Shown: positions 2,209 to 59,676, numbered from the stretch's first letter. The stretch is 64,000 nt of DNA from Planctomycetota bacterium (GCA_031423015.1 JANPER010000150.1:3330-67329), one strand, 5' to 3'. Notes: a model not told the origin generated them from the sequence alone. A program made the numbers and translations.

Positions 2209-2949
2209 TCACACGGCGGGCACTGGCAACTTCCCCTTCACCAGGAACTGCGTGCGCGCGAATTCCACCATTTCGTGGCGCAGCACATCGCGGCGCACGA
2301 ACACCACGCGCTGGCGCGACGTCGTGCAGTGCCAGGTCTGCGGCGCGCGAGGCTGCCGGTTGGCGAACGCGCGCGGCGTGAACACGCCGATGTTGACGCC
2401 GCCTTGTGCGCGCGCCGAGGGTGTGCGGAACGCTTCGACCCCGAGGTCGCGCATGGCGGTGCCGAGCGTCTGTGTCGCGTCATAGCCGACAGGTGAAGCG
2501 AGGGTGTCGCGGTGTGCGGTGAAGCGACCGCGGGTGAGGTCGACACCGTGCGCCGAGGTCACACCGACCGCGAACACCGTGTGTTCTGACACCGCGTGCT
2601 CGATCTTTGCGGCGGTGCCGTCGAGGAACGCCAGCCGGTAGTACGCGGCTTCGGCCAAGGTGGTGCGCACTTCCTCGGCGCCATACCAGATGCCACGCTG
2701 ATCACGCCGGCCAAAGCGCGACCCGTGCCGCAGCGGCGGGTAGCGAAACGGCGTCGCCAGCAGGTAGTGCAGGTCGCGCACGTCGTCGGCTTCCTTCTGC
2801 GGCTTGCTGCGCTCGATCAGGTCTTCGAGCACGTCGTGCTCGGCGGCGGTGTCCACGAGCTTCAGAGTGGCGATGCGATGCTGCGCCTCGACGATGCGAT
2901 GCGCCGTGGTCGTCAATCGGCCGACATCGCGCGCGCTGACCGTCGGCAC
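2209..2949 (-). CDS. RES-domain toxin of a RES-Xre toxin-antitoxin pair
   Basis: ORF 2209..3147 is trimmed to the GTG at 2949, which lies 5 nt downstream of the antitoxin stop (2954-2956). The core LATPFRYPPLRHGSRFGRRDQRGIWYGAEEVRTTLAEAAYY has the Arg/Glu/Ser-type pattern of RES domains. The position directly after an Xre/DUF2384 gene is the canonical arrangement. Confidence 0.8.
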   Translation of the reverse strand: MPTVSARDVGRLTTTAHRIVEAQHRIATLKLVDTAAEHDVLEDLIERSKPQKEADDVRDLHYLLATPFRYPPLRHGSRFGRRDQRGIWYGAEEVRTTLAEAAYYRLAFLDGTAAKIEHAVSEHTVFAVGVTSAHGVDLTRGRFTAHRDTLASPVGYDATQTLGTAMRDLGVEAFRTPSARAQGGVNIGVFTPRAFANRQPRAPQTWHCTTSRQRVVFVRRDVLRHEMVEFARTQFLVKGKLPVPAV

Positions 2950-2953
2950 AAGA

Positions 2954-3334
2954 TCACGCTCGGCCGCGCATTGCGTCGAGGTAGTCGACCACGGCGACCA
3001 GGCCGGCGGCCGACTCGATGAGCTGAGCCGGAACTCCACCGAGGTGCGTGTTGTTCGCCTCGAGCCACTGGCGACTGTTGTCGCCGCCGCCGCCGAACAG
3101 GGCATCGAGGCTGCGGAACACGCGTACGAACAGCACCGCCAGCTCACCGGCCTTCGACTCGGGATCGAGCGGTCGGCCGCCGCCCAGGCGCGAGACCGTC
3201 GCCTCGCTGATCCCGAGGATGCGAGCGATACGGTTCTGGCGGACGCCGAGGTGCTCGGCGGTGCGCAAGACGGCGCGGGACAAGACGACGCCGGGGTCGG
3301 CTTCTGGTCGCGAACGGGGTCGGGCGGTGAGCAT
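2954..3334 (-). CDS. Xre-type antitoxin with DUF2384-like C-terminal domain (MbcA/ParS-like)
   Basis: The N-terminal HTH-like segment is LGVRQNRIARILGISEATVSRL. The C-terminal segment WLEANNTHLGGVPAQLIESAAGLVAVVDYLDAMRG is typical of DUF2384 antitoxins that neutralise RES toxins. It is the upstream gene of the pair. Confidence 0.8.
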   Translation of the reverse strand: MLTARPRSRPEADPGVVLSRAVLRTAEHLGVRQNRIARILGISEATVSRLGGGRPLDPESKAGELAVLFVRVFRSLDALFGGGGDNSRQWLEANNTHLGGVPAQLIESAAGLVAVVDYLDAMRGRA

Positions 3335-9713: not shown

Positions 9714-12509
9714 ATGGACGATCGCATGCTGCTGCAACCATCTCGGCGCGAAGTTTCTCGACGCGCATTTCGGCCATTGATCGGTCACTTCCTGTTGACC
9801 CTGTTGGCGGTGGAGGCCGGCGCTCAGCAAGTGGGGGGCACGGGCTTCAGCAGCGGCCGTGGCTTCTACAACCAGCCACTCGACGTGGTCGTGAGCACCA
9901 GCACCGCCGGCGCAACCGTGCGCTACACGTTGGATGGCAGCGATCCGACGTCTTCGTCGAACTACGCCGAGGGGCTGGCGCCGGCGACGGTGCGTATCGA
10001 TCCTGCCAGCACGAACGGCGTGCTGCGCCGGGTGACACCGGCGGTGACGTTGCGGGCCTACGCCTACAAACAAGGCCTGACACCGAGCGCCGTCGATACG
10101 CAGACTTACGTCTTCGTCGACCGTGTGCTGACCCAGACGCGCCCGTCGGGCTACCCCACCGGTTTCGAGTATGACATGGACGCTGTCGTCGTGAACGACC
10201 CCCGCTACCAGAGTCGTATCCGGAACGACCTGCTGTCGGTGCCCAGCATCTCCGTCGTGACCTCGGTGAACGACATGTTCGGGACGAACAGCTTGATGAC
10301 CGCGTCCGCCAGCTCGATCGAGAAGCCGGGTTCGATCGAAGTCATCCATCCCGACGGCCGCAGCGGCGTGCAGGCGAACTGCGGTTTCAAGCCGCACTCG
10401 CACATCCTGCGCAAGCGCAGTCTGCGAGTGTACTTTCGCGGCGCGGTCTACGGCGTCGGCGCACTCCATCACGACTTGTTCCCAGACGCCGTCGAGGGCG
10501 TGGATGCGCGCGTTCGGCGCTTCGACGTCTTGGTCCTGCGTGCCGGCGTGAACGACAACCTGCAAAGCGCCTTTGACGGGCGCAACGGCCGCGCCACCTA
10601 CGTGGTCGATCAGTTGGCGCGTTCGTCGCAGGCAGCGATGAGCGGTTACGGCCAGCGCGGCTTGTTTGCGCACCTGTACATCAACGGCCTGTATTGGGGC
10701 CTCTACAACTTGGTCGAGCGACCCGACGACGCGTTCTCTGCTGGTCAGTTCGGCGGCGACGAGCGCGACTGGTTCGCGATCAACCACGCTGGCGAGCTCA
10801 GCGGCGACCCCTCCTGGTTCCGCGGGCTGGTCAGCAACTCGTGGGATTGGAACGTGGTGCGGCAGCGCCTCGACTTGCCGTCATTCGCTGATTACATCCT
10901 GTACTACTTCCTGAGTGGCGGCGGCGACTGGCCCGAGAACAACTGGTACGCAGGCAACCGTGTGTTGCCGACGCCCGGATTCGTGCGCTACCACATCTGG
11001 GACATCGAGGACTCGTGGATCCGCATGCCGGGACGCGCCAACGACGGTGCCTGGGTTCACCCGAACTTGATCGCTGGCGCCGGGGACCTGGGCCGCATCT
11101 GGACGAATGTCGACAACCACGTCGACTTCCTCATGGTTTTGGCTGACCGCGTCTACAAGCACTGCTTCAACGACGGCGCGATCAGCGAAGATCAGCTGCA
11201 GGCACGCTACGACCAGTTATGCGCGCAAATCGACGGCGCGGTCGTTCCCGAGTCGGCGCGCTGGGGTCGCTTCAAGGGCGGTGGCGGACGTTGGACCCGC
11301 GACGACGACTGGGTGCCGTACAAGAACTCGGTGCGCAGTCTGATGACGGGCAACGTGCAGAGGTTGCTCGCAGCGCTACGCAACGTGAACGTTCCCTCGC
11401 CCCACCCGAAGTACTACCCCGACGTCGAGCCGCCGCTGTTCCGTAGCGGGGGGATCACCCTGAACCTCACCAAGCTCACGGTGGCGCCGGGCTTCCCGCT
11501 GAGCATCGACCGCGCGTCCAGCAGCGGCACCGTCTACTACACGCTGGACGGCAGCGATCCGCGTGCCCCGGGTGGTGCGGCGCGCGGGACCAATGCCGGC
11601 GCCGGCACCAGTCTCAACGTGAACACGTCGATGATCGTGCACGCGCGCACGCTGCATAACGGTGAGTGGAGCGCGCTGCACGAGCTGGTGTTCCTCGTCA
11701 TGCCGACGCTGCCGCTCGAGATCCACGAGTTCATGGCGGAGAACGACACCGGAATCCGTGACGAGACCGGCCAGTCCGAGGATTGGATCGAGATCTGGAA
11801 CAAGTCGCCGCAGCCGTTCAACATCGGCGGCTACCGCCTGACCGACGACATCCGCGTGCCGACGAAGTGGACGTTCCCGGCAGGGACGACAATCCCGCCG
11901 GGCTCTACGATCCTGGTCTGGGCCGACAGTGAGACGACGCAGGGGCCGCTCCATGCCAACTTCGGGCTGAGCGCCAATGGCGAGTTGGTGGCGCTGTTCG
12001 ACCCGTCTGGTACCGTTCTCGTAGACGGCTTCCCCTTCGGGCCTCAGCTTGGCGACGTCTCAGTCGGTCGCTTGGCGGATGGCGACAACACCTGGGTTGC
12101 GCTGTCTAGCCCGACGCCGCGACGACCCAATCGCGCGAGCCCCTGCGGCCACATCTCCTACCGCAGCGCGGCGCTCTTGCCCGTGGCGGCGTCGCTGCGT
12201 GGCGAGGGCACGGTGATGCCGACCGAGCGGATGAAGATACGCCTCAACGGAGCCGCACCATCCAGTCCGGCGGCGTTGGCGGTCGGCCTGCTCCCGGCGC
12301 ATGCCGAACTCAACGGTTTGGGCACCCTCCTGGTGACGCCGCTCATCGTGGTGCCAGCCACGACCGACGTCGAGGGCAAGGTCACATTCACGGTGTGGCT
12401 GCCCCCAGACCCAAACCTGCGCCATGCCACGATCTTCACTCAAGCAGTGTTCGTCAGCGGCGGGATCGCCGGGCTGTCAGACGCGGTGGCCTCTCGCGTC
12501 TGCCCGTAG
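9714..12509 (+). CDS. Secreted CotH-domain protein with Fn3-associated and lamin-tail (LTD) domains
   Basis: An SD-like aggagagg precedes the ATG. The signal-like segment is LLTLLAVEAGAQQ. The CotH core is HLYINGLYWGLYNLVERPDDAF. Two TVRYTLDGSDP/TVYYTLDGSDP modules are present. The LTD is IHEFMAENDTG...EDWIEIWNKSPQPFNIGGYRLTDD...PPGSTILVWAD. The C-terminal ~90 aa belong to the shared module described in findings. Confidence 0.8.
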   Translation: MDDRMLLQPSRREVSRRAFRPLIGHFLLTLLAVEAGAQQVGGTGFSSGRGFYNQPLDVVVSTSTAGATVRYTLDGSDPTSSSNYAEGLAPATVRIDPASTNGVLRRVTPAVTLRAYAYKQGLTPSAVDTQTYVFVDRVLTQTRPSGYPTGFEYDMDAVVVNDPRYQSRIRNDLLSVPSISVVTSVNDMFGTNSLMTASASSIEKPGSIEVIHPDGRSGVQANCGFKPHSHILRKRSLRVYFRGAVYGVGALHHDLFPDAVEGVDARVRRFDVLVLRAGVNDNLQSAFDGRNGRATYVVDQLARSSQAAMSGYGQRGLFAHLYINGLYWGLYNLVERPDDAFSAGQFGGDERDWFAINHAGELSGDPSWFRGLVSNSWDWNVVRQRLDLPSFADYILYYFLSGGGDWPENNWYAGNRVLPTPGFVRYHIWDIEDSWIRMPGRANDGAWVHPNLIAGAGDLGRIWTNVDNHVDFLMVLADRVYKHCFNDGAISEDQLQARYDQLCAQIDGAVVPESARWGRFKGGGGRWTRDDDWVPYKNSVRSLMTGNVQRLLAALRNVNVPSPHPKYYPDVEPPLFRSGGITLNLTKLTVAPGFPLSIDRASSSGTVYYTLDGSDPRAPGGAARGTNAGAGTSLNVNTSMIVHARTLHNGEWSALHELVFLVMPTLPLEIHEFMAENDTGIRDETGQSEDWIEIWNKSPQPFNIGGYRLTDDIRVPTKWTFPAGTTIPPGSTILVWADSETTQGPLHANFGLSANGELVALFDPSGTVLVDGFPFGPQLGDVSVGRLADGDNTWVALSSPTPRRPNRASPCGHISYRSAALLPVAASLRGEGTVMPTERMKIRLNGAAPSSPAALAVGLLPAHAELNGLGTLLVTPLIVVPATTDVEGKVTFTVWLPPDPNLRHATIFTQAVFVSGGIAGLSDAVASRVCP

Positions 12510-17260: not shown

Positions 17261-17438
17261 GCGTGGCCGAGCGGGCCTCGCGCGTGATCATCACGCTCGC
17301 CAGCTCCACAGCTCTGGTCCGAGGCGACCTCGCCACCCGTTGCGCGGTTTTTCCAGCAAGCCATCCCACCGACCTTGCCGATACACCGAGCGACCGCGTC
17401 GACGCGGCACTTCGTAGTTCGGATCGAGGTTGGCCTGA

Positions 17439-18734
17439 ATGGAACAGATGCTGCTTGGCGAGATCCTCCTCAACTTCCGCTTGGTCTCCAAGGCGGACCT
17501 GGAGCGCTGTCTCGATTTGCAACAGCGGCTCGACCCGCAGCCGATGCTGGGCAGCGTCCTGTTGCAGCAGGGCCTGATCGACGAGAAGGTGCTGGCCACC
17601 GTCCTGTCGGTGCAGAAAGACGAACTCGGGACCAGCTTGTTCGACGACACCAAGTCGAAGCACGACGTGGCGCGCACGCTGGAGAAGGCCACCATCGACG
17701 ACTTCCTGAACGCGTCGCGCCGTCTGCATGCGTCCGACTTGTTCTTGTCGTCTGGCCGGCGTCCGGCCGTGCGTCGCAACGGGCTCGTGTCCGACCTACC
17801 GTCGGGCGTGCTGTCGCTCGAACGCTGCCGCGACCTGTTGTTCGCGCTGCTGACGCCGGAGCAGATCGAGGTCTATCAGCGCGACCGGCAGATTGACGTG
17901 CGAGTGAAGACCGTGCGCGGTCGCTTCCGCCTCAACGTGTTCCGGCACTATGACGGGATCGCTGGCGTGTTCCGCGTGTTGTCCGATGACGTGCCGACGT
18001 TCGAGGGGCTCGGGCTGCCCGAGGCGGTACGCGAGATTGCCGACCTCAAGAACGGTCTGGTGCTGGTTACCGGTCCCACGGGCTCGGGCAAGAGCACGAC
18101 GTTGTCGGCGATCGTCGACCTCATCAACAAGAACCGCAAGCTGCACATCATCACGCTCGAAGATCCGATCGAGCACATCTTCAAGAGCGAGCTGTCGTTC
18201 GTATCGCAGCGCGAACTCAACACCAGCACGACGTCATACGCCGACGCGCTGCGTGCGGCGCTGCGCGAGGATCCCGACGTGATCGTGGTGGGTGAGCTGC
18301 GCGATCCGCAGACCTTCGCGGTGGCGCTCACTGCTGCTGAGACTGGCCATCTGGTGCTCGGCACGCTGCACACCAACAGCGCGTGCAGCACGGTGGTGCG
18401 TGTGATCGACCAGTTCCCCGCCGCGCGACGCGCCCACGTGCGCACCATGATGTCGAGCGTGCTGCGCGCGGTGATCTGCCAAGAGCTGATCCCGAGCGTC
18501 GACGGCGAGAACATGTATCAGGCGGCCGAGGTGATGATGGTCACCCCCGCGGTGTCGAATCTGATCCGCGAAAACCGCGAGTGGCAGATCCCCAACGTGA
18601 TGCAGATGAACCGCACCCGCGGCATGCGCCTGATGGACGAGAGTCTGATGGAGCTGGTGCGCGCCAAGAAGATCTCGGTCGACCAGGCGCTCATGCGCGC
18701 CACCGACCGCTCGCGATTCACCGTCCCCGCCTGA
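17439..18734 (+). CDS. PilT/PilU-type hexameric ATPase with N-terminal MshEN/T2SSE_N-like extension
   Basis: Walker A is GPTGSGKSTT, Walker B DPDVIVVGELRD and the His box GHLVLGTLHT. A PilT-like AVSNLIRE motif is present. An extra ~90 aa at the N-terminus carries two 24-aa repeats (see findings). Confidence 0.85.
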   Translation: MEQMLLGEILLNFRLVSKADLERCLDLQQRLDPQPMLGSVLLQQGLIDEKVLATVLSVQKDELGTSLFDDTKSKHDVARTLEKATIDDFLNASRRLHASDLFLSSGRRPAVRRNGLVSDLPSGVLSLERCRDLLFALLTPEQIEVYQRDRQIDVRVKTVRGRFRLNVFRHYDGIAGVFRVLSDDVPTFEGLGLPEAVREIADLKNGLVLVTGPTGSGKSTTLSAIVDLINKNRKLHIITLEDPIEHIFKSELSFVSQRELNTSTTSYADALRAALREDPDVIVVGELRDPQTFAVALTAAETGHLVLGTLHTNSACSTVVRVIDQFPAARRAHVRTMMSSVLRAVICQELIPSVDGENMYQAAEVMMVTPAVSNLIRENREWQIPNVMQMNRTRGMRLMDESLMELVRAKKISVDQALMRATDRSRFTVPA

Positions 18735-18756
18735 GGCAAGAAAGAGCAACCCTGCG

Positions 18757-19863
18757 ATGGCACAGATCGATGCCCTTCTCGAGCGCATGGAAGCGCTCCA
18801 GTCTTCCGACTTGCACCTCAAGGTCGACATGCGGCCGCGCTACCGCATCCATGGCTCGCTCGAGGAAGCGACCGACCTGCCGATGCTCGGCAAGGAGATG
18901 TTGGAGCGACTCACCAACGAGATCCTGAGCGACGAGCAGAAACGCCAACTGCAGGTCGGGCATGGGCTCGACTTCGCCTACGGCGGCCCGCGGATCGGTC
19001 GCTTCCGCTGCAACTACTTCGAGGATCACTGGGGCCGCGCCGCCGTGTTCCGCCGCATCCCGAGCAAGGTGCCCTCGCTGCTCGAACTCGGCATGCCGCG
19101 GATCGTCGAACGCCTCGCGCACCTCAAGCGGGGGTTGGTGTTGATCACTGGTGCCACCGGCGCCGGCAAGTCGTCGACGCTGGCGGCGTTGGTCGATCTC
19201 ATCAACAGCAACTACCGCAAGCACATCATCACGCTGGAAGACCCGATCGAGTTCTTGCACCCGATGAAGCGCTCGATCATCCACCAGCGCGGCGTGCACT
19301 ACGACATCAAGGACTTCGGGTCCGGCATCATCGCCGCGCTGCGCGAGTCGCCCGACGTGCTCGTGATCGGCGAGATGCGCGACCTCGACAGCATCCGGCA
19401 GGCGCTCACCGCCGCCGAGGTCGGCGTGCTGGTGTTCGCCACACTGCACACCAACAACGCGGCCGGGTCGATCGACCGCATCATCGACGTGTTCCCGCCC
19501 GAGGAGCAACCACAGGTCCGCGTGCAGTTGGCGCAGAGCCTGGCCGGTGTGGTGTCGCAAGCCCTGTTGCGCCGCCGCCTAGGCACGGGTCGCGTGCCAG
19601 CCGCGGAGATCTTGGTGTGCAACACCGCGGTGAGCAACATCGTGCGCGAGGGGCGCACGCAGGATCTCGTCACCGTGCTGCAGGGCGGCAAGAGCCAAGG
19701 CATGCAGACCATGGACGACTCGTTGGAGCAGCTGGTGCAGCACGGCGTGGTAGACGCCGACGAAGCCTGCCTCCACGCGCAGAACAAGCCGCGCTTCGAG
19801 CGCTTGGTCGGCAAGAGCGATGTCGCCGGCAGTGGGCGGCGCCCGGCAGTCGCGCCGCGTTAG
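18757..19863 (+). CDS. pilT: Type IV pilus retraction ATPase PilT family
   Basis: The N-terminus has SDLHLKV. Walker A is GATGAGKSST, followed by ITLEDPIEF, Walker B SPDVLVIGEMRD, the His box LVFATLHTNNA and AVSNIVREGR. It lies 22 nt after the preceding ATPase gene. Confidence 0.88.
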   Translation: MAQIDALLERMEALQSSDLHLKVDMRPRYRIHGSLEEATDLPMLGKEMLERLTNEILSDEQKRQLQVGHGLDFAYGGPRIGRFRCNYFEDHWGRAAVFRRIPSKVPSLLELGMPRIVERLAHLKRGLVLITGATGAGKSSTLAALVDLINSNYRKHIITLEDPIEFLHPMKRSIIHQRGVHYDIKDFGSGIIAALRESPDVLVIGEMRDLDSIRQALTAAEVGVLVFATLHTNNAAGSIDRIIDVFPPEEQPQVRVQLAQSLAGVVSQALLRRRLGTGRVPAAEILVCNTAVSNIVREGRTQDLVTVLQGGKSQGMQTMDDSLEQLVQHGVVDADEACLHAQNKPRFERLVGKSDVAGSGRRPAVAPR

Positions 19864-24237: not shown

Positions 24238-24310
24238 CCGAGCCGACTCTACGTCGCCGGTCAGCCGGTGAAACAACCGCGGTCGCGTTCTCGTTTGCCT
24301 CGCCCGGGTG

Positions 24311-24331
24311 GCTGTCGCGAATTGCGACAGC
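24311..24331. promoter_or_regulatory. Candidate operator: 8-bp inverted repeat GCTGTCGC-gaatt-GCGACAGC in the divergent hydrolase/NRPS intergenic region
   Basis: Read directly from the DNA. It lies within the 223-bp divergent region 24238-24460. A TAGAAT -10-like hexamer sits at 24457-24462. Confidence 0.3.
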
Positions 24332-24460
24332 ACCAACCCCCGGCGGATCGCCAGCGGATCGCACCCGCGGTCAAGGTCTGCGGCTCCGCGCACCGAACTA
24401 CGATGCGGGAGGCCAGAGTTCGGCCACGTCTCGTGTGGTCGCCGGATTTCTCTGCCTAGA

Positions 24461-29269
<4,809 letters not shown>

Positions 29270-29275
29270 GAATGC

Positions 29276-32200
29276 ATGGCTGAACATCACGCAGGTGACG
29301 GCAGCGCCGCCGCTGATGCGGCCGCGACCGACATCGCCATCGTCGGCATGGCCTGCCGCGTGCCCGGCGCCAACAACGCGCGCGAGTTGTGGGCCAACGT
29401 GCGCGGCAAGGTGGAGTCGATTCGGCGTTACACCGACGACGAACTGCGCGCCGCCGGCGTCGAGGAGGCGCTGCTCGCCAACCCCAACTACGTGCGCGCC
29501 GGTGGCTCGCTCGATGCGATGGAGATGTTCGACGCCGGCTACTTCGGCTTCGGACCGCGCGACGCCGCGATCATGGATCCGCAGCACCGGCACTTCTTGG
29601 AGTGCTGCGTTGAAGCGCTGGAAGACGCTGGCTTGCCGCCGGCGCGCTTCAAGGGCGCGATCGGTCTGTTCGCCGGCTGCGGCATGGGCGCCTACTTCGC
29701 CTACAACATTCTGACGCAGCCCGACCTGCTCGAGAACGTGGGCTTGTTCTTGCTGCGGCACACCGGCAACGACAAGGACTTCTTGGCCACGCGCGCCTCG
29801 TACTGCCTGAACCTGCGCGGCCCGTCGGTGTCGGTGCAGACCGCGTGCTCTACGTCGTTGGTCGCGGTGCACCTCGCCTGCCAGAGTCTGCTGGCGATGG
29901 AGTGCGACATGGCGCTCGCCGGCGGCGTCACCATCGAGCAGCCGCACCGGCACGGCTACTTGTTCAAGGAGAACGAGGTGCTGTCGCCCGACGGACACTG
30001 CCGCGCGTTCGCGGCCGAGTCCAAGGGCACCGTGCTCACCAGCGGTCTCGGTGTCGTGGCCGTGCGCCGCCTGGCCGACGCGCTGCGCGACGGCGATCCG
30101 ATCCACGCGGTGATCAAGGCTACCGCGGTCAACAACGATGGCTCCGGCAAGGTGGGCTACCTGGCGCCGAGCGTCGATGGCCACTCGGCGGTGGTCGCCG
30201 AGGCGTTGGCGCTGTCGGGGATCGACCCGGAGACGATCACGCTGTTCGAAGCGCACGGCACCGGCACGCAGGTGGGCGATCCGATCGAGATCGCGGCCCT
30301 CACCCAGGCCTATCAGGCGCAATCCAAGAAGACGAGCTACTGCGCGATCAGCTCGCTCAAGACCAACATCGGTCACCTCGACACGGCGGCTGGCGTTGCC
30401 GGCTTGATCAAGGTCGCCAGCGCGCTGACCCACAAGGAGCTGCCGCCGAGTCTGCACTTCGACCAGCCGAACCCGATCATCGACTTTGCGACGAGCCCGT
30501 TCTACGTCAACACCGAGTGCACGGCGTGGCCGCGGGGTGCGACGCCGCGGCGGGCGGGGCTGAGTTCGCTCGGCGTCGGCGGCACCAACGCGCACGCGAT
30601 TGTGGAAGAGGCTCCAGCCGCCAAGACGACGGCGTTGGCTGAGCCATGGCAGCTCCTGCTGTTCTCGGGCAAGAGCCAGCGGTCGGCGGAGGGCAACGTC
30701 GAGCGTCTGCGCCAGCACCTGCAAGCGCAGCCGACGCTGAACCTCGCCGACGTCGCGTTCACGTTGGAAAGCGGCCGCGAGGCGCACGTTCAGCGCCGCG
30801 CGTACGCGGTGCGCGATGCAGCGCACGCCGTCGAGGTGTTGCAGAGCAAGGACGCCAAGGTGCTCGCGTCCGGCGCCGCGCAAGAGCGCGAGCCGAGCGT
30901 AGTGTTCATGTTCCCCGGCGGCGGCGCCCAGTACGTGGGCATGGGGCGCGACCTCTACGCGCGCTACCCGGTGTACCGGCAAGCGATCGACCAGTGCCTC
31001 GACGTGCTGCGACCGCTGCTGCCCGAGGATCTGCGCCCGCTGCTTTTCGCGGCGCCGGGCGAGGGCGACGCCGCCGAGCGCATTCAGGGCCCGCTGGCGT
31101 TGCCGGTGTTGTTCGCCACCGAGTACGCCCTGGCTCAGCTGTGGATGTCGTGGGGCATCGAACCCGCAGCGATGACGGGCCACAGCCTCGGCGAGTACAC
31201 CGCGGCGTGTTTGGCCGGCGTCATGTCGCTGCCCGACGCACTCGCGCTGGTACTGCTGCGTTCGCGCCTGCTGACCACGGTGCCGACCGGCGCGGTGCTC
31301 AGCGTGCCGCTGCCGGAGAGCGAAGTGCGACCGCTGCTGGGCGTGGAGTTGTCGCTGGCGGCGGTCAACGGCCCGGAGCTGTGCGCGGTGTCAGGCCCCG
31401 AACACGCAGTGGCGGCGCTCGAAGCCGTGCTCGCCGCGCGCGACGTCGAGGGCCGACGGCTGAAGATCTCGGTGGCCGCGCACTCGGCGATGCTCGACCC
31501 GATCCTCGACGAGTTCCGCGCCGGGGTGCGCAAGATGAAGTTGCAGGCGCCGAAACGTCGCTTCATCAGCAACCTCACTGGAACCTGGGCCGAGGCCAGC
31601 GAGGTGACTTCGCCGGAGTATTGGGTGCGCCACCTGCGCCACACGGTGCGCTTCGCCGACGGCATGGCGACGCTGATGGCCGACAAGCACCGCGTGTTCC
31701 TCGAAGTCGGGCCGGGCACGACGATGTGCACGCTGGCGCGCATGCAGCGCGCCAAGGCCGCCACGCACGAGGTGATCGCCTGCTTGCGGCATCCGCAGGA
31801 GCCGGCCGACGACGTGCAGTTCCTGTTGACGGCGCTCGGGCGCGTGTGGTGCGCCGGCAAGAACCCAGACTGGAGCATGCTGCGCGGCAAAGCGCCGCGG
31901 CGCCGCCTGTCGCTGCCGACCTACGCGTTCGATCACCAGCGTTACTTCATCGAGCCGGGCAAGCGCGCGTTGGCGGGACTCAACACCGACCTCAGTCTGA
32001 CGCGCATCGGCGACGTACGCGATTGGTTCCACCGGCCGAGCTGGCATCCGTCCGCGTTGCCGCCGGGTGGCGTGGCGGCAAGCACGCGCTTCGTGTTGTT
32101 CCTCGACGAGGACGGTCCGGGCGAAGCGCTCGCCGAGAAGCTCGGCACGCGTGGCCACCAGGTCGTGCGCGTGATGCGGGGACCGTCGTTTCAGAGCGTC

Positions 32201-51565: not shown

Positions 51566-52633
51566 ATGGACGCCGCCGAAGGCGACATTCGCACTCAGTC
51601 ACCGATCCGGACGCAGTCTCTCGTTCGCACGCAAGCGCTGCTTGACCGGCTGCGCCCGTGCAAGCGCCTCTTGGTGTTGACGCACACCAACCCGGATCCC
51701 GACTCGATGGCCAGCGCCATGGGGCTGCGCCTGCTCGTCGATCGCAAGCTCGGCCTGCCGACGGACATCGCGTTGAGCGGCCGCGTGATGCGCGCCGAGA
51801 ATCGCGAACTCGTGCGCTCCGTCGACCTGCGCATGCTGCCGCAAGACAGCGTCGATTTGTCGCGCTACGACGCGTTTGCCGTGGTGGACACCCAGCCGGG
51901 GTTTGGGCATACGCGCATCCCCAAGGGAGTCGAGATCGACGTCGTCATCGATCATCACAAGCCGCCGCCGAACAACGGCCACAACGTGCCGCACTTCGAC
52001 GTGCGTACCGACGTCGGTGCCACCAGCACGATGGTGACGGACTACCTGATGAGCGCAGGCGTCGAGGTGACGCCAGATGTAGCGACGGCCTTGTTCTACG
52101 GCGTCAAGACCGATACCGCCGACCTGTCGCGCAACGCCAGCCCGCTCGACTTCGCCGCCTACGACTTCCTGCAGACGCGCGTCGACCGCGTGAAGCTCGC
52201 GCGCATCACCACGCCGGACGTGCCGATCGACTACTTTCGCGCGTTGCGGGCGGCGCTCAACAACGTCCGCTTCTACGACAGCGTGATCCTTTGCTCGCTT
52301 GGCCGAGTGGATGCCCCCGAGATGGTGGCCGAAGTGGCCGACCTGCTGCTGCGCATGGAGGGCAAGCGGTCGGTGTTCTGCGGCGGGCTGTCGGGCAAGA
52401 CCTACTACGTGTCCGTGCGCACCGACCTCGAGGATCGGGACGCCTATGACCTGATCCGTGGCGCCCTCGACGGCGTAGGTTCCTTCGGCGGACATGGCTC
52501 GGTGGCGGGGGGCTCGGTCGAGCTACCCGACGGCGACGCCCGCACGCTGAAGCGCCTCGAGCGTCGGTTGGAGAAGAACATCCAGCGCACCATGGGTGTC
52601 GACGACGTGACCGTGGGCACGCTGGGGGGCTAG
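51566..52633 (+). CDS. DHH/DHHA1-family phosphoesterase (NrnA-like)
   Basis: Motifs are LVLTHTNPDPDSMASA, AVVDTQP, VIDHHKPP and DHHA1 GGHGSVAGG. Confidence 0.8.
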   Translation: MDAAEGDIRTQSPIRTQSLVRTQALLDRLRPCKRLLVLTHTNPDPDSMASAMGLRLLVDRKLGLPTDIALSGRVMRAENRELVRSVDLRMLPQDSVDLSRYDAFAVVDTQPGFGHTRIPKGVEIDVVIDHHKPPPNNGHNVPHFDVRTDVGATSTMVTDYLMSAGVEVTPDVATALFYGVKTDTADLSRNASPLDFAAYDFLQTRVDRVKLARITTPDVPIDYFRALRAALNNVRFYDSVILCSLGRVDAPEMVAEVADLLLRMEGKRSVFCGGLSGKTYYVSVRTDLEDRDAYDLIRGALDGVGSFGGHGSVAGGSVELPDGDARTLKRLERRLEKNIQRTMGVDDVTVGTLGG

Positions 52634-58233: not shown

Positions 58234-59676
58234 ATGGACATCCCCGTACCGAGACTCCGTCTGCGCCAGTTTCCGCTGGGCTATCGCTTGCTGGCCGTGA
58301 TGCTTGGCGCCGCTGTGGTGGTGGCGCTCCTGGTCACGCTGGAGGTCGCGGACCGCAACGCGCGCGAGCACCGTGGGGCCGCACAGCTCGACGCGGAGCG
58401 TTGCGCGCTACAGCTCGCCGAGCGTGCCGCGCAGCACCTTTCGGTGGAAGACGATCTCCGCCTTGCGCTCATCGCGACCGCCGCCAAGGACGTGCTTGGT
58501 GCGGCAGCGCGTGTCCGCGTCGTCGATGCACGCGGCCACTTGCGTTTCGATAGCTCCGTGCTTGACGGTCACGACACAGTCGCGTCGCGCGATGGCGAGG
58601 TAGCGCTGAGTTCCACGGTGACGCGTCCCTGCGTCGTCGAAGGCCGCACGGTGGGCGAGGTCCGCATTTCGCGCGCCGTGGCACCGACACTCGCGAGCTT
58701 CGCGTGGGGCCTGTTCGGGCTAGTGTTCCTCACCAGTCTGAGTCTCGTATGTTTGGCGGTCGCCGCGTGTCACCATTGGTTGGCGCGGGTTGCCGAAGTC
58801 ACCGAAACCGCGCGCCGATTGGCGAAGGGCGACCTCACCGGTCAATCCGGATCTGCCGCGCCAGGCGTGCTTGGCGAGTTGCAGAATGCGCTCGCAGAGG
58901 TTGCCGAAGCCATGCAGAACGGGGTCGATGGTGTGCGCGAGAGCGTCATCGAACTCGGCCTGGCGCTGGTCGATCAAGTCGAGCGCCGCGACCAGACTGC
59001 ACCGGGTCACTGTGAGCGCACGGCGAAGTACTCCGCGTTGCTCGCGGGACGGCTGTCGATGTGTGACGAGGACTGTCGCGATCTCGAGCTCGCGGCGCGC
59101 TTGCACGACGTGGGCAAGGTCGCGATTCGTCCCGCCCTGCTCGACAAGAGGGGGCCGCTGTCCGAGGAGGAGCGCGCCACGCTGCGGCAGCACCCAGACC
59201 GTGGCGCGAGCTTCTTTGCCGGCGTGCCGCGCTTGCAGCTCGTTGCCCAGATCATCCGACACCATCACGAGAAGTACGATGGCACCGGCTACCCCGAGGG
59301 CCTCCGCGGCGACCGCATCCCGTTGGGCGCCCGCATCCTCGCCATCACCGACGCGTACGACGTGCTGACCAGTCGGGGCATCAATGGCAACCCGCTGGCT
59401 TGGTCGCAGGCGATCGAGCGTATGCGGGCCGACCGCGGCGAGCATTTCGATCCTTGGTTGTTCGACCTGTTCGTGGCGGCAATCGAGGCGACGCCAATGC
59501 CCGATCAGCCGGTTCGGATGTTGGTGATCTCGCCGCAGGGCGTGGTGCCCTACAAGGTGACCGAGCCGACGCCCTTCGAGCGTGAACTCGACGCGTGCCT
59601 CGACGAGGAAGAGGTCTTGGAAGCCGCGTCGCAGGATCTGGAGGTGATGCACGACGATCGGGAGGCGCGCGAGTGA
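58234..59676 (+). CDS. Membrane sensor HD-GYP phosphodiesterase (TM-sensor-TM-HAMP-HD-GYP)
   Basis: There are two TM segments and a HAMP-like region (ETARRLAKGDLTGQ). The HD-GYP motifs are intact: HCERTAKY, LHDVGKVAI and HHEKYDGTGYPEGL. Confidence 0.85.
   Translation: MDIPVPRLRLRQFPLGYRLLAVMLGAAVVVALLVTLEVADRNAREHRGAAQLDAERCALQLAERAAQHLSVEDDLRLALIATAAKDVLGAAARVRVVDARGHLRFDSSVLDGHDTVASRDGEVALSSTVTRPCVVEGRTVGEVRISRAVAPTLASFAWGLFGLVFLTSLSLVCLAVAACHHWLARVAEVTETARRLAKGDLTGQSGSAAPGVLGELQNALAEVAEAMQNGVDGVRESVIELGLALVDQVERRDQTAPGHCERTAKYSALLAGRLSMCDEDCRDLELAARLHDVGKVAIRPALLDKRGPLSEEERATLRQHPDRGASFFAGVPRLQLVAQIIRHHHEKYDGTGYPEGLRGDRIPLGARILAITDAYDVLTSRGINGNPLAWSQAIERMRADRGEHFDPWLFDLFVAAIEATPMPDQPVRMLVISPQGVVPYKVTEPTPFERELDACLDEEEVLEAASQDLEVMHDDREARE

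What the first reader, a model, noticed from the sequence alone, without database searches (positions are those of the whole stretch)
17439..19863. Orphan tandem PilT-type ATPases; the first carries an MshEN-like (c-di-GMP receptor-type) N-terminal double repeat
Two PilT/PilU-like ATPase genes lie 22 nt apart. No pilin, PilB, PilC, PilMNOPQ or secretin gene is in the window; the neighbours are an acyl-CoA operon and sodB. The first protein has ~90 extra N-terminal residues containing two 24-aa repeats: LLGEILLNFRLVSKADLERCLDLQ (nt 17451-17522) and MLGSVLLQQGLIDEKVLATVLSVQ (nt 17544-17615), separated by 7 residues. These fit the MshEN/T2SSE_N consensus RLGxx(L/V/I)(L/V/I)xxG(L/V/I)(L/V/I)xxxx(L/V/I)xxx(L/V/I)xxQ, which binds c-di-GMP in MshE-type extension ATPases. 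Retraction-type (PilT) ATPases normally lack this domain. One caveat: both repeats lack the leading Arg (L/M instead), and repeat 1 has Arg where the central Gly is expected, so ligand binding is not assured.
Basis: partly seen in the sequence, partly recalled or inferred. Interest (0 to 1): 0.55.

Follow-up and report, generated by a model that had tools for sequence, protein, structure and literature searches.

The report
PilT retraction motor with c-di-GMP sensor
A planctomycete carries a conserved pair of pilus-retraction (PilT) motor genes, and the first has a small built-in module of the kind that binds the signalling molecule c-di-GMP, which until now was described only on pilus-extension motors, so retraction may be controlled directly by this signal.

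Summary
ORF A (17439-18734, 431 aa) and ORF B (18757-19863, 368 aa) lie 22 nt apart. Both score above the curated PilT/PilU cutoff and far below the PilB/GspE/MshE cutoffs.

Residues 1-62 of A form an MshEN_N module, the minimal c-di-GMP-binding part of MshE-type extension ATPases:
- It reaches the NCBIfam c-di-GMP-motif model at about its cutoff.
- A family profile hits only MshEN/GSPII modules in the PDB.
- An AF2 model (pLDDT 90) superposes on c-di-GMP-bound MshE and PilF GSPII-B (TM 0.77-0.83, RMSD about 1 Å).
- The nearly invariant family columns are the ligand-contact positions.

Arg14 at the motif-I Gly position remains a real deviation.

A and B form a conserved two-gene module (6 of 6 loci) in uncultured Planctomycetota, always away from pilus structural genes. 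B consistently lacks two His-box residues. A Myxococcales MAG has an independent (MshEN_N)x3-PilT fusion.

I found no published description. A 2024 review uses this N-domain to tell extension ATPases from retraction ATPases. Ligand binding and its effect on retraction are inferred, not shown. Verdict: a new variant of known kinds, of moderate interest.

The parts
17426..17429 (+). GAGG, a ribosome-binding-site-like element 9 nt upstream of the ATG of ORF A. An in-frame TGA at 17436-17438 rules out any longer N-terminus.
   Evidence: Read directly from the sequence.
17439..18734 (+). ORF A, 431 aa: an MshEN_N module, a linker and a PilT-family ATPase core.
   Evidence: ORF list. TIGR01420 scores 403.7 bits against a cutoff of 319.1. 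Best PDB relatives are PilT, at 1e-83. About 90 full-coverage homologs of 428-463 aa.
17439..17624 (+). MshEN_N module (residues 1-62): a four-helix unit (helices 6-12, 18-30, 37-43 and 49-64) and the predicted c-di-GMP receptor.
   Evidence: NF053729 at E 1.5e-10. Family profile against the PDB: PilF 2.4e-18, Geobacter PilB 3e-12, MshE 9e-7. AF2 pLDDT 89.9. Foldseek TMq 0.77-0.83 to c-di-GMP-bound 5htl, 8pdk and 8pfa. Purifying selection.
17451..17522 (+). Motif I, LLGEILLNFRLVSKADLERCLDLQ (residues 5-28). It has Leu instead of Arg at position 1 and Arg14 instead of Gly at position 10. Every other key position is kept.
   Evidence: Coordinates. L5, G7, L10, L21 and Q28 are invariant or at least 90% conserved in the family. 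Leu at position 1 is permitted by the extended consensus. Gly to Leu/Ile at position 10 lowers binding in MshE. Asn is at this position in M. xanthus PilB, which is reported to bind c-di-GMP.
17544..17615 (+). Motif II, MLGSVLLQQGLIDEKVLATVLSVQ (residues 36-59). It fits the consensus at every position except Met in place of Arg/Lys/Leu at position 1. A 7-residue spacer (QRLDPQP, residues 29-35) precedes it.
   Evidence: Coordinates. L37, G38, L41, G45, L56 and Q59 are invariant or at least 90% conserved. Geobacter PilB also has a 7-residue spacer.
17625..17693 (+). Linker (residues 63-85) between the module and the PilT N-domain. It is variable in sequence and length and partly low-confidence in the model.
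   Evidence: pLDDT is below 50 for residues 64-72 in the 1-125 model. Alignment gaps and variability in these columns.
17694..18731 (+). PilT core of A (residues 86-431) with canonical motifs: Walker A GPTGSGKST (18072-18098), Asp box LEDPIE (18156-18173), Walker B DPDVIVVGELRD (18270-18305), His box AAETGHLVLGTLHT (18333-18374) and AVSNLIRE (18549-18572).
   Evidence: Motif coordinates. Alignment to P. aeruginosa PilT and to orthologs. The TIGR01420 match covers residues 86-424.
18735..18756 (+). The 22-nt intergenic spacer. It holds no terminator-like site on the + strand, consistent with co-transcription of A and B.
   Evidence: The spacer is 1-45 nt in the orthologous pairs.
18757..19863 (+). 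ORF B, 368 aa: a plain PilT-family ATPase with no N-terminal module and a short C-terminal tail. It is the conserved partner of A.
   Evidence: TIGR01420 scores 407.8 bits. Best PDB relative is P. aeruginosa PilT, at 1.8e-89. 41% identical to the core of A. Directly downstream of the A ortholog in 6 of 6 loci.
19411..19452 (+). Variant His box of B, AAEVGVLVFATLHT. Val replaces both the Thr (T221 in G. metallireducens PilT) and the first His (H223). The gamma-phosphate His (H230 equivalent) is kept. Walker A is GATGAGKSS (19150-19176) and Walker B is SPDVLVIGEMRD (19348-19383).
   Evidence: The variant is family-wide in B homologs. Roles of T221 and H230 are from PMC6858323.

Best explanation
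ORF A encodes a PilT-class type IV pilus ATPase, the retraction-motor class. Its N-terminus carries an MshEN_N module. This is the 53-60-residue four-helix unit that binds one c-di-GMP between two 24-residue motifs in MshE, PilB and PilF extension ATPases. A flexible linker of about 23 residues tethers it to the PilT N-domain.

A is co-transcribed with ORF B. B is a second PilT paralog that lacks the module and has a variant His box. The two genes are inherited together as one module in a lineage of uncultured Planctomycetota, and they sit apart from the pilus structural genes, as pilT and pilU commonly do.

Most likely mechanism (inferred): c-di-GMP binds the N-terminal module of A and changes the module's conformation or position relative to the hexameric motor. 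That changes the motor's ability to engage the pilus platform or to hydrolyse ATP, so that pilus retraction responds directly to c-di-GMP level. My guess at the direction is that high c-di-GMP restrains retraction, favouring pilus-mediated attachment. This would mirror the way c-di-GMP promotes extension through MshE. B would act as an unregulated or A-dependent accessory motor, in a PilU-like role.

Shown here: gene structure, family membership of both cores, homology and predicted fold of the module, conservation of the ligand-contact positions, and conservation of the gene pair.

Inferred: ligand binding, its direction of effect, any A-B interaction, and which pilus system is served.
For: Core identity:
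- TIGR01420 is above its cutoff for both proteins, while PilB/GspE models are far below theirs.
- PDB best hits are PilT.
- A has canonical Walker A, Walker B, Asp and His boxes.

Module identity:
- NF053729 hits A at E 1.5e-10 and hits 40 of 40 family members, best 4e-16.
- The single sequence hits the N-terminus of Geobacter PilB at 1.8e-5.
- The family profile hits only MshEN/GSPII modules, including MshE 5htl at 9e-7.
- The AF2 model has pLDDT 89.9 and pTM 0.76.
- Its nine best PDB matches are all c-di-GMP-bound MshE or PilF GSPII-B (TMq 0.77-0.83, RMSD 0.9-1.8 A). The non-binders GSPII-A and X. citri PilB score lower.

Ligand competence:
- The invariant or at least 90%-conserved columns (L5, G7, L10, L21, Q28, L37, G38, L41, G45, L56, Q59) fall on key motif positions, although overall N-terminal identity drops to 30-45%. 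Several of these are ligand-contacting residues in MshE.
- Leu at position 1 gives a KD of 2 nM in PilF K167L, and L196 is native there. The published consensus was extended to (R/K/L)LG.
- A non-Gly residue (Asn) at motif-I position 10 occurs in M. xanthus PilB, which is reported to bind c-di-GMP.
- Isolated MshEN_N (residues 1-62) binds at 0.35 uM without MshEN_C.

Other support:
- The module is under the same purifying selection as the core.
- The window encodes an HD-GYP protein with the HHExxDGxGYP signature, so c-di-GMP turnover exists in this organism.
- The A+B module is kept in 6 of 6 loci with unrelated flanks, and the A and B trees are congruent.
- An independent (MshEN_N)x3-PilT fusion in a Myxococcales MAG shows the combination has been selected more than once.
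Against: - No binding data exist for any member of this family.
- In this protein, motif I has Arg14 where MshE has Gly18. Gly to Leu/Ile substitutions there markedly lower binding. In the family this position is N, H, R, G, K or S.
- Met36 at position 1 of motif II is outside both the extended (R/K/L) consensus and Galperin's relaxed [RKPN] set.
- The spacer is 7 residues rather than 5.
- The MshEN_C subdomain, which contributes one contact (D108) in MshE, is absent.
- The full-length NF053729 score (37.2) is just under the cutoff of 38.
- Degenerate MshEN domains that do not bind ligand are common, for example XpsE, P. aeruginosa PilB and PilF GSPII-A.
- AlphaFold's resemblance to the bound state may only reflect its training data.
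- The direction of regulation is a guess.
- No pilus genes or diguanylate cyclase are linked to the pair in any locus examined.
Confidence: 0.6

Rival explanations
1. The N-terminal module is a degenerate MshEN_N that no longer binds any nucleotide. It would serve instead as a protein-protein interaction or localisation domain, for example docking the PilT motor to a platform, a partner (B) or a polar landmark. This would resemble the non-binding N-domains of XpsE/GspE and P. aeruginosa PilB.
For: - Arg14 sits at the conserved Gly position of motif I, and Met36 at position 1 of motif II.
- The full-length HMM score is just below the cutoff.
- Non-binding MshEN domains are documented.
- MshEN_C is absent.
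Against: - The strongest conservation across the family falls on key motif positions, including ligand-contact residues, rather than on a different surface.
- Documented non-binders have multiple substitutions at key positions (8 in XpsE). Here 9 of 11 key positions are kept in motif I and 10 of 11 in motif II. Of the three that differ from the original RLG motif, one (Leu5) is experimentally tolerated.
- The model is closer to binders than to non-binders.
Confidence: 0.25
2. A is not a retraction motor in vivo. It would be a PilT-like ATPase that, with its PilB-style sensor, drives or licenses pilus extension, or acts bifunctionally. The pair might also serve a non-pilus machine.
For: - PilT is required for MSHA pilus extension in V. 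cholerae, and some systems use one motor for both directions.
- Classical Planctomycetes were said to lack an obvious retraction ATPase.
- No pilus genes are linked to the pair.
Against: - The core is unambiguously in the PilT/PilU family by curated HMM and by closest structures.
- It lacks the PilB Zn-finger.
- It retains an AIRNLIRE-like motif, AVSNLIRE.
- pilT genes are typically unlinked from pil operons (general knowledge).
Confidence: 0.08
3. The module binds a different cyclic dinucleotide (for example 3'3'-cGAMP) rather than c-di-GMP.
For: MshEN binds cGAMP weakly (Figure 1h legend; section heading). The deviations at position 1 of both motifs and position 10 of motif I could shift specificity.
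Against: Guanine recognition in MshEN comes from backbone amides at the LG-x positions and from Leu clusters, all of which are conserved here. An HD-GYP enzyme is encoded in the window.
Confidence: 0.05
4. The extension is an annotation artefact, or the motif resemblance is due to chance. The real start would be an internal Met, and the upstream residues would not be translated.
For: Some database gene calls for relatives start at the motif-II Met (P0086, P0096). NCBI's call for the Myxococcales protein starts inside a module.
Against: - Synonymous differences exceed non-synonymous ones in codons 1-62, at the same ratio as in the core. GC3 is 0.89 in frame, against 0.73 and 0.24 in the other two frames.
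- About 90 homologs conserve the full N-terminus from Met1.
- HMM E-values are 1e-10 to 4e-16.
- A GAGG lies 9 nt upstream of the ATG.
Confidence: 0.02

Closest known systems
PilT retraction ATPases of type IVa pili (P. aeruginosa PilT 3JVV, Geobacter PilT4 5ZFQ/6OJX, Aquifex PilT 2EWV)
   Same: The cores of A and B are 44-47% identical to these proteins. They score above the TIGR01420 cutoff. They share the two-domain N2D plus CTD layout, the Walker A, Walker B and Asp boxes, and the gamma-phosphate histidine.
   Different: A has about 85 extra N-terminal residues forming an MshEN_N module, which classical PilTs lack. The review PMC11656802 uses the presence of this N-domain to tell extension motors from retraction motors. 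B lacks the T221 and H223 equivalents of the His box.
MshEN / GSPII c-di-GMP receptor domains of extension ATPases (V. cholerae MshE 5HTL; Thermus PilF GSPII-B 8PDK; Geobacter and M. xanthus PilB N-termini)
   Same: Two tandem 24-residue motifs form a four-helix unit. The same Leu, Gly and Gln key positions are kept. The predicted fold superposes at about 1 A. The spacer is 7 residues, as in Geobacter PilB. Motif I has a non-Gly residue at position 10, as in M. xanthus and Geobacter PilB.
   Different: The module is attached to a PilT-type core rather than a PilB/GspE-type core. Only the MshEN_N subdomain is present (no MshEN_C/T2SSE_N1). Position 1 is Leu in motif I and Met in motif II. Position 10 of motif I is Arg.
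MshEN_N-only fusion proteins catalogued by Wang et al. 2016 (EpsG MshEN_N-AAA_31, Bd2402 REC-MshEN_N, CheA and CheX fusions)
   Same: The stand-alone MshEN_N subdomain is used as a portable input module fused to an unrelated output domain.
   Different: A PilT-type ATPase output is not among the architectures listed in their Table S4.
pilT-pilU tandem retraction-ATPase pairs (P. aeruginosa, V. cholerae, Neisseria)
   Same: Two adjacent PilT-family paralogs lie away from the pilus structural operons. PilU works as a PilT-dependent accessory motor, which is a plausible model for B (the gene arrangement is general knowledge).
   Different: Both A and B are closer to PilT than to the solved PilU (285-303 bits against 217-220 bits). 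The first gene carries a sensor module. The order and identity of 'primary' and 'accessory' motor are unknown.
Indirect c-di-GMP control of pili (FimX-PilZ-PilB; MshE-c-di-GMP against PilT competition)
   Same: The physiological logic is the same: c-di-GMP level sets the balance between extension and retraction.
   Different: In those systems the receptor sits on, or acts through, the extension motor. Here the receptor module is part of the retraction-type motor itself.

Membership tests
PilT/PilU family type IVa pilus ATPase (TIGR01420) | Score above the curated HMM cutoff over the full core | tested here: met
   A scores 403.7 bits (residues 86-424) and B 407.8 bits (residues 4-344), against a cutoff of 319.1.
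PilT/PilU family type IVa pilus ATPase (TIGR01420) | Walker A, Asp box, Walker B (catalytic Glu) and His box with the gamma-phosphate His | tested here: met
   A has GPTGSGKST, LEDPIE, DPDVIVVGELRD and AAETGHLVLGTLHT. B has GATGAGKSS, LEDPIE, SPDVLVIGEMRD and AAEVGVLVFATLHT. B keeps the H230 equivalent but lacks the T221 and H223 equivalents.
PilT/PilU family type IVa pilus ATPase (TIGR01420) | PilT-type AIRNLIRE motif near the C-terminus | tested here: inconclusive
   A has AVSNLIRE (6 of 8 identical) and B has AVSNIVRE (4 of 8). The functional tolerance of these changes is unknown.
PilT/PilU family type IVa pilus ATPase (TIGR01420) | No N-terminal GSPII/MshEN domain (the feature reviews use to separate retraction from extension ATPases) | tested here: not met
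   A carries MshEN_N at residues 1-62. B meets the criterion. This is what makes A a variant. It is a descriptive feature of the family rather than a catalytic one.
PilT/PilU family type IVa pilus ATPase (TIGR01420) | Hexameric ATPase that powers pilus retraction | not testable with these tools
   This needs biochemistry or genetics.
MshEN_N c-di-GMP-binding module | Match to the curated 53-position c-di-GMP motif model (NCBIfam NF053729, cutoff 38 bits) | tested here: inconclusive
   37.2 bits on the full protein, 40.7 bits on residues 1-100 and 38.7 bits on residues 1-125. E-values are 1.5e-10 to 1.9e-9. All 40 of 40 family members match, best 4e-16. The score sits at the cutoff.
MshEN_N c-di-GMP-binding module | Two 24-residue motifs (R/K/L)LGxx(L/V/I)(L/V/I)xxG(L/V/I)(L/V/I)xxxxLxxxLxxQ | tested here: inconclusive
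   Motif I meets every position under the extended consensus except Gly10, which is Arg14. Motif II meets every position except position 1, which is Met36.
MshEN_N c-di-GMP-binding module | 5-residue spacer between the motifs | tested here: not met
   The spacer is 7 residues (QRLDPQP). The MshEN of Geobacter PilB also has 7 residues, and CheA of Aeromonas has a longer spacer in Wang's alignment. The length is therefore variable within the family.
MshEN_N c-di-GMP-binding module | Four-helix fold superposable on ligand-bound MshEN | tested here: met
   AF2 pLDDT 89.9. Foldseek gives 5htl TMq 0.81-0.83 with RMSD 0.9-1.5 A, and PilF GSPII-B TMq 0.77-0.80, all with probability 0.99-1.00. This rests on a predicted model, not an experimental one.
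MshEN_N c-di-GMP-binding module | Specific binding of c-di-GMP | not testable with these tools
   ITC, DRaCALA or MST is required.
Full MshEN domain (Pfam PF05157, MshEN_N plus MshEN_C/T2SSE_N1) | Presence of the C-terminal subdomain / Pfam PF05157 match | tested here: not met
   No Pfam hit on residues 1-100 even at E up to 1. Only about 23 linker residues separate the module from the PilT core. Wang et al. noted that the PF05157 model of 2016 omitted the first three helices of MshEN_N.
PilB / MshE / GspE extension or secretion ATPases | Score above the curated cutoffs of TIGR02538, TIGR02533, NF007755 and NF053534 | tested here: not met
   A scores 125.5 against 675.65, 138.3 against 630.25, 135.3 against 617 and 117.8 against 850. 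It has no CxxC tetracysteine motif.
PilU accessory retraction ATPase | Closer to PilU than to PilT | tested here: not met
   Against the solved PilU (9n32), A scores 217.4 bits and B 219.9 bits. Against PilT, they score 285-303 bits. Only one PilU sequence was available for comparison.

The most novel reading that the evidence does not exclude
This is the first recognised family of pilus retraction motors with a built-in second-messenger receptor. c-di-GMP would bind the MshEN_N module of A and directly gate retraction. A would work together with its obligate partner B, possibly as a mixed or sequential motor in which A supplies the His-box Thr that B lacks. The same solution evolved independently in Myxococcota as a triple-module PilT. 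It would also mean that a Planctomycetota lineage, a phylum once thought to lack retraction ATPases, has a regulated retraction system.
Probability: 0.35. Interest if true: 0.72.

Novelty: new variant of a known kind. Interest (0 to 1): 0.56.

Why it matters
How bacteria switch type IV pili between extension and retraction is a central open question. So far, every direct c-di-GMP input known in pilus systems acts on or through the extension ATPase (MshE, PilB, PilF, FimX-PilZ-PilB). Floyd et al. 2020 list as unresolved whether c-di-GMP affects PilT-mediated retraction independently of the extension motor.

A PilT with its own MshEN_N module would be a natural system for testing direct second-messenger control of retraction. 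It is small, soluble and suited to ITC, ATPase assays and cryo-EM.

It also qualifies a rule of thumb used in annotation and in reviews, that an N-terminal GSPII/MshEN domain marks an extension ATPase. It further shows that automated gene calls and the Pfam scan run here miss the module: all database names are plain 'PilT', and some gene calls start inside the module.

The strictly conserved A+B pairing, together with B's variant His box, adds a testable case of division of labour between PilT paralogs.

Tried and rejected
- **Pfam scan of residues 1-100:** no hit at E up to 1. I do not count this as evidence against the module, because Wang et al. noted that the PF05157 model of 2016 omitted helices 1-3 of MshEN_N.
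- **Genome scan with the broad 40-sequence N-terminal alignment:** The narrower alignment found only 3 loci, all Planctomycetota MAGs, so the taxonomic survey is thin.
- **Cluster-name look-ups for organism identity:** no names were returned for the window's own proteins.
- **Rosetta-stone idea:** I asked whether the 718-752-aa single-chain PilT-PilT proteins (Chondromyces, Lentisphaeria) are A+B fusions. Rejected, because both halves resemble the A core and B about equally (35-47% identity) and none carries MshEN_N.
- **Promoter and terminator scan:** no sigma-70-like promoter and no + strand terminator. This is uninformative for a planctomycete.
- **Recent duplication of the two motifs:** rejected. 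There is no DNA-level repeat, and the two repeats share 8 of 24 residues by my own count.
- **Saltatorellus-like origin** (GC 67% against 67.9% in the window; PilB and PilT reported there): could not be confirmed. No named Saltatorellus protein appeared among the top hits of either search.
- **B's His-box change as proof of inactivity:** not adopted. PilTs of other phyla also lack the first His.
- **Literature searches** for MshEN with PilT, MshEN with Planctomycetes, MshEN_N, and PilT with c-di-GMP and Planctomycetes: none found a description of this architecture. The library omits most subscription-journal papers.

Full report
**1. What is in the sequence**

Two same-strand ORFs occupy the region: ORF A (17439..18734, 431 aa) and ORF B (18757..19863, 368 aa). 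They are 22 nt apart. A cannot start further upstream, because an in-frame TGA directly precedes its ATG. A GAGG lies 9 nt before the start. The window has 67.9% GC, and both ORFs show the GC3 of real genes (0.89-0.90).

They are similar only at protein level, with no DNA repeat, as expected for an old internal duplication.

**2. Both cores are PilT-class, not PilB/GspE/MshE-class**

Against NCBIfam, A scores 403.7 bits and B 407.8 bits on the PilT/PilU subfamily model TIGR01420 (cutoff 319.1). On the PilB, GspE and TfpB models they reach only 88-138 bits against cutoffs of 617-850.

Against all PDB sequences the best relatives are PilT proteins: Geobacter PilT4, Aquifex PilT and P. aeruginosa PilT, at 285-303 bits. 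These rank ahead of the solved PilU (217-220 bits), DotB, and PilB/GspE (115 bits or less). Neither protein has the CxxC Zn-binding motif of PilB/GspE.

A has fully canonical Walker A, Asp-box, Walker B and His-box motifs. B keeps Walker A, Walker B and the gamma-phosphate histidine, but has Val at the positions equivalent to T221 and H223 of G. metallireducens PilT. According to McCallum et al. [quoted passage not shown]

**3. The N-terminal 62 residues of A are an MshEN_N module**

*HMM evidence.* NCBIfam's 53-position 'c-di-GMP_motif, MshE-related' model NF053729 matches residues 6-59. The E-values are 1.5e-10 to 1.9e-9 and the scores 37.2-40.7 bits, straddling the 38-bit cutoff. The other N-terminal hits are the MshEN region of the c-di-GMP-activated glycosyltransferase NfrB and its relatives, and EpsG.

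*Why Pfam finds nothing.* Pfam gives no hit on residues 1-100. Wang et al. 2016 noted that the PF05157 model of that time omitted the first three helices of MshEN_N. A has only that subdomain, followed by a linker of about 23 residues and then the PilT N-domain.

*Sequence and profile evidence.* The single sequence hits the N-terminus of Geobacter PilB at 1.8e-5. A profile of 40 family N-termini hits only MshEN/GSPII modules in the PDB:
- Thermus PilF, 2.4e-18
- Geobacter PilB, 3e-12
- V. cholerae MshE (5HTL), 9e-7
- PilF GSPII-B, 3.7e-5
- M. xanthus PilB, 5e-5

*Structural evidence.* An AlphaFold2 model of residues 1-66 is confident (pLDDT 89.9, pTM 0.76; helices 6-12, 18-30, 37-43 and 49-64). 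Its nine best PDB matches are all c-di-GMP-bound MshE or PilF GSPII-B structures (TM-score normalised to the query 0.77-0.83, RMSD 0.9-1.8 A over 58-61 columns). The known non-binders rank lower: PilF GSPII-A at TM 0.67, and the X. citri PilB N-domain at RMSD 4.1 A. The earlier 1-125 model gave the same answer and showed a low-confidence linker at residues 64-72.

**4. Is the module likely to bind c-di-GMP?**

*Evidence for.* The homolog search returned about 90 proteins of 428-463 aa covering 99-100% of A. In an alignment of 40 diverse N-termini, the invariant or at least 90%-conserved columns are M1, L5, G7, L10, L21, Q28, L37, G38, L41, G45, L56 and Q59. Apart from the initiator Met, these fall on key motif positions of the MshEN motif: positions 1, 3, 6, 17 and 24 of motif I, and 2, 3, 6, 10, 21 and 24 of motif II. 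Several of them are Leu, Gly and Gln residues that contact c-di-GMP in MshE.

The codons of the module show the same excess of synonymous over non-synonymous change as the ATPase core. Against an 82% relative the counts are 18:12 for the module and 99:60 for the core.

This is largely answered by Neissner et al. 2024 (PMC11731258). Thermus PilF GSPII-B has Lys and Leu at these positions and binds c-di-GMP at 6 nM. Its K167L mutant binds at 2 nM, while reverting to Arg weakens binding. The authors extended the consensus to (R/K/L)LG. Leu5 in motif I is therefore acceptable, and it is conserved across the whole family.

*Remaining deviations.*
- Met36 at motif-II position 1. It is hydrophobic but untested. 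Close relatives have Pro, Gln or Leu, and more distant ones have Arg, Lys or Leu.
- Arg14 at motif-I position 10. In MshE this is Gly18, and Gly to Leu/Ile lowers binding. The family has N, H, R, G, K or S here. Asn at this position occurs in M. xanthus PilB, which is reported to bind c-di-GMP.
- The 7-residue spacer, which Geobacter PilB shares.

*Other points.* MshEN_C is not required, because isolated MshEN_N(1-62) binds at 0.35 uM. The organism has c-di-GMP turnover: the window encodes a membrane-anchored HD-GYP protein (58234..59676) with LHDVGK and HHHEKYDGTGYPEGL.

I put the probability of c-di-GMP binding at roughly 0.6-0.7. The main alternative is a degenerate module reused for protein-protein contacts, as in XpsE or P. 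aeruginosa PilB.

**5. The gene pair is the conserved unit**

| Locus | Relation to the window | What is conserved |
|---|---|---|
| L002 (1.6-Mb contig, Planctomycetota MAG) | A about 82% identical | thiolase, 3HCDH, ACAD, S49 peptidase, ACAD, A, B, then SOD |
| L003 | about 83% identical | A followed by the start of B; the contig ends within B |
| L004 | A 55%, B 61% identical | only A+B; flanks unrelated |
| L005 (8.07-Mb genome) | A 55%, B 62% identical | only A+B; flanks unrelated |
| L006 | A 46% identical | only A+B; flanks unrelated |

L001 is a 2-kb contig identical to the window over A, followed by the start of the second gene.

The intergenic gap is 1-45 nt in the orthologous pairs. 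In every locus with downstream sequence (6 of 6), the A ortholog is immediately followed by a plain PilT of 356-368 aa. No pilus structural gene lies within 10 kb in the two loci with precomputed gene annotation (L005, L006), nor among the window ORFs scanned.

A orthologs and B orthologs form two separate clades with congruent branching. A and B are about 40% identical to each other, and each is 44-47% identical to reference PilTs. The loss of the first His-box histidine marks nearly all single-domain B homologs down to about 53% identity, and most also lack the T221 equivalent. Some PilTs of other phyla also lack that His, so I do not read it as inactivation.

All named members of both families are 'Planctomycetota bacterium' MAG proteins, annotated simply as PilT or PilT/PilU. 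At 50% clustering, the A-type family comprises only about 9 full-length and about 8 fragmentary clusters among the top 150 hits. It is a modest, lineage-restricted family.

**6. An independent second case**

The profile search turned up P0155, a 590-aa protein from a Myxococcales MAG. It scores 464.8 bits on TIGR01420. Three MshEN_N units precede its core, and alone they score 31.9, 40.1 and 40.8 bits on NF053729. Its core groups with classical PilT (54% to P. aeruginosa PilT), not with A, so the fusion arose separately. NCBI's gene call for the same protein is 397 aa and starts inside the third unit. Two planctomycete relatives are likewise called from the motif-II Met. These truncated calls help explain why the architecture has gone unnoticed.

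**7. Comparison with what is known**

Wang et al. 2016 catalogued MshEN and MshEN_N architectures, and none has a PilT-type output. [quoted passage not shown]

Full-text searches found no description of this architecture. The library lacks most subscription-journal papers. Floyd et al. 2020 name as an open issue whether c-di-GMP affects PilT retraction independently of MshE. A 2019 preprint remarked that classical Planctomycetes seem to lack a retraction ATPase.

**8. Mechanism and verdict**

*Shown here:* a PilT-class core; a conserved, translated MshEN_N module with the ligand-contact residues preserved; a flexible tether; an obligate PilT partner gene; and c-di-GMP turnover genes in the organism.

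*Inferred:* c-di-GMP binds the module and thereby gates the activity of motor A or its engagement with the platform. I favour restraint of retraction at high c-di-GMP, by analogy with the promotion of extension through MshE, but the sign is a guess. B would act as an accessory or A-dependent motor.

The thing is best filed as a new variant that combines two known kinds, a PilT motor and a portable MshEN_N sensor. It is not a new kind of system. Interest is moderate: a specialist would find it noteworthy rather than astonishing, and it offers a clean experimental handle on direct second-messenger control of pilus retraction.

Noticed in passing
window 58234-59676 (+): A 480-aa protein with hydrophobic, probably membrane-spanning N-terminal segments by eye, and a C-terminal HD-GYP domain. 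Pfam HD_5 hits at 2.4e-38, and the signatures LHDVGK and HHHEKYDGTGYPEGL are present. It is a probable c-di-GMP phosphodiesterase about 38 kb from the PilT pair, and it shows that the organism uses c-di-GMP.
   Followed up: partly
window 19411-19452 (ORF B) and the B homologs: The partner PilT (B) has AAEVGVLVFATLHT where PilT has AAETGHLVFGTLHT. The first His is lost in nearly all B-family members, and the T221-equivalent Thr is lost in most, while all A orthologs keep both. T221 is an inter-subunit contact to the catalytic His in PilT structures. This raises the untested possibility that B depends on A subunits.
   Followed up: partly
P0155 / P0273 (Myxococcales MAG proteins; not in the window): A 590-aa PilT with three tandem MshEN_N units in front of a classical PilT core. 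This is an independent fusion. NCBI's gene call for the same protein (MDD9968287, 397 aa) starts inside the third unit and so hides the architecture.
   Followed up: partly
P0013-P0018, P0035, P0044 and others (one search hits; Chondromyces crocatus and C. apiculatus, Lentisphaeria MAG): Single-chain tandem PilT-PilT proteins of 718-752 aa, nearly all with two Walker A motifs. A canonical AAETGH His box was found at most once per protein, and in the C-terminal half in the one case checked (P0014). They are not A+B fusions and lack MshEN_N.
   Followed up: partly
P0086 and P0096: Database gene calls for two planctomycete family members begin at the Met of motif II (MLGEILV...). This probably truncates the MshEN_N module through start-codon choice.
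   Followed up: no
one search hits such as P0127, P0128, P0130 and P0139 (1150-1185 aa): Large proteins with 6-9 separate matches to the MshEN_N profile. Arrays of this module seem common in metagenomic proteins, and their domain contexts were not examined.
   Followed up: no
window 24308-29269 and 29276-35743 (+): Two very large adjacent ORFs (1653 and 2155 aa). In the translation of the first, adenylation (FTSGSTGKPKGV) and carrier-protein (LGGHSLLAV) signatures are visible by eye, together with a formyltransferase-like N-terminus and what looks like a luciferase-like monooxygenase insert. The second ORF was not read. Probably an NRPS-type cluster; not scanned with HMMs.
   Followed up: no
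window 51566-52633 (+): A DHH-family phosphoesterase (Pfam DHH at 9.6e-12), with only weak matches to Mn-dependent pyrophosphatase models. It could be an NrnA-like pGpG or oligoribonuclease, but this was not tested.
   Followed up: no
window 2209-3147 (-) and 2954-3334 (-): A RES-domain protein (Pfam RES at 4.7e-26) with a small, overlapping upstream ORF on the same strand. Possibly a RES-Xre toxin-antitoxin pair, next to an SNF2-family helicase (133-2193).
   Followed up: no
window 9714-12509 (+): A 931-aa ORF with a hydrophobic N-terminal stretch (possibly a signal peptide) that combines CHB_HEX_C/Fn3-associated, CotH-kinase and lamin-tail domains. It interrupts what is a contiguous thiolase and beta-oxidation operon in the 82% relative L002, where thiolase is directly followed by 3HCDH.
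   Followed up: no
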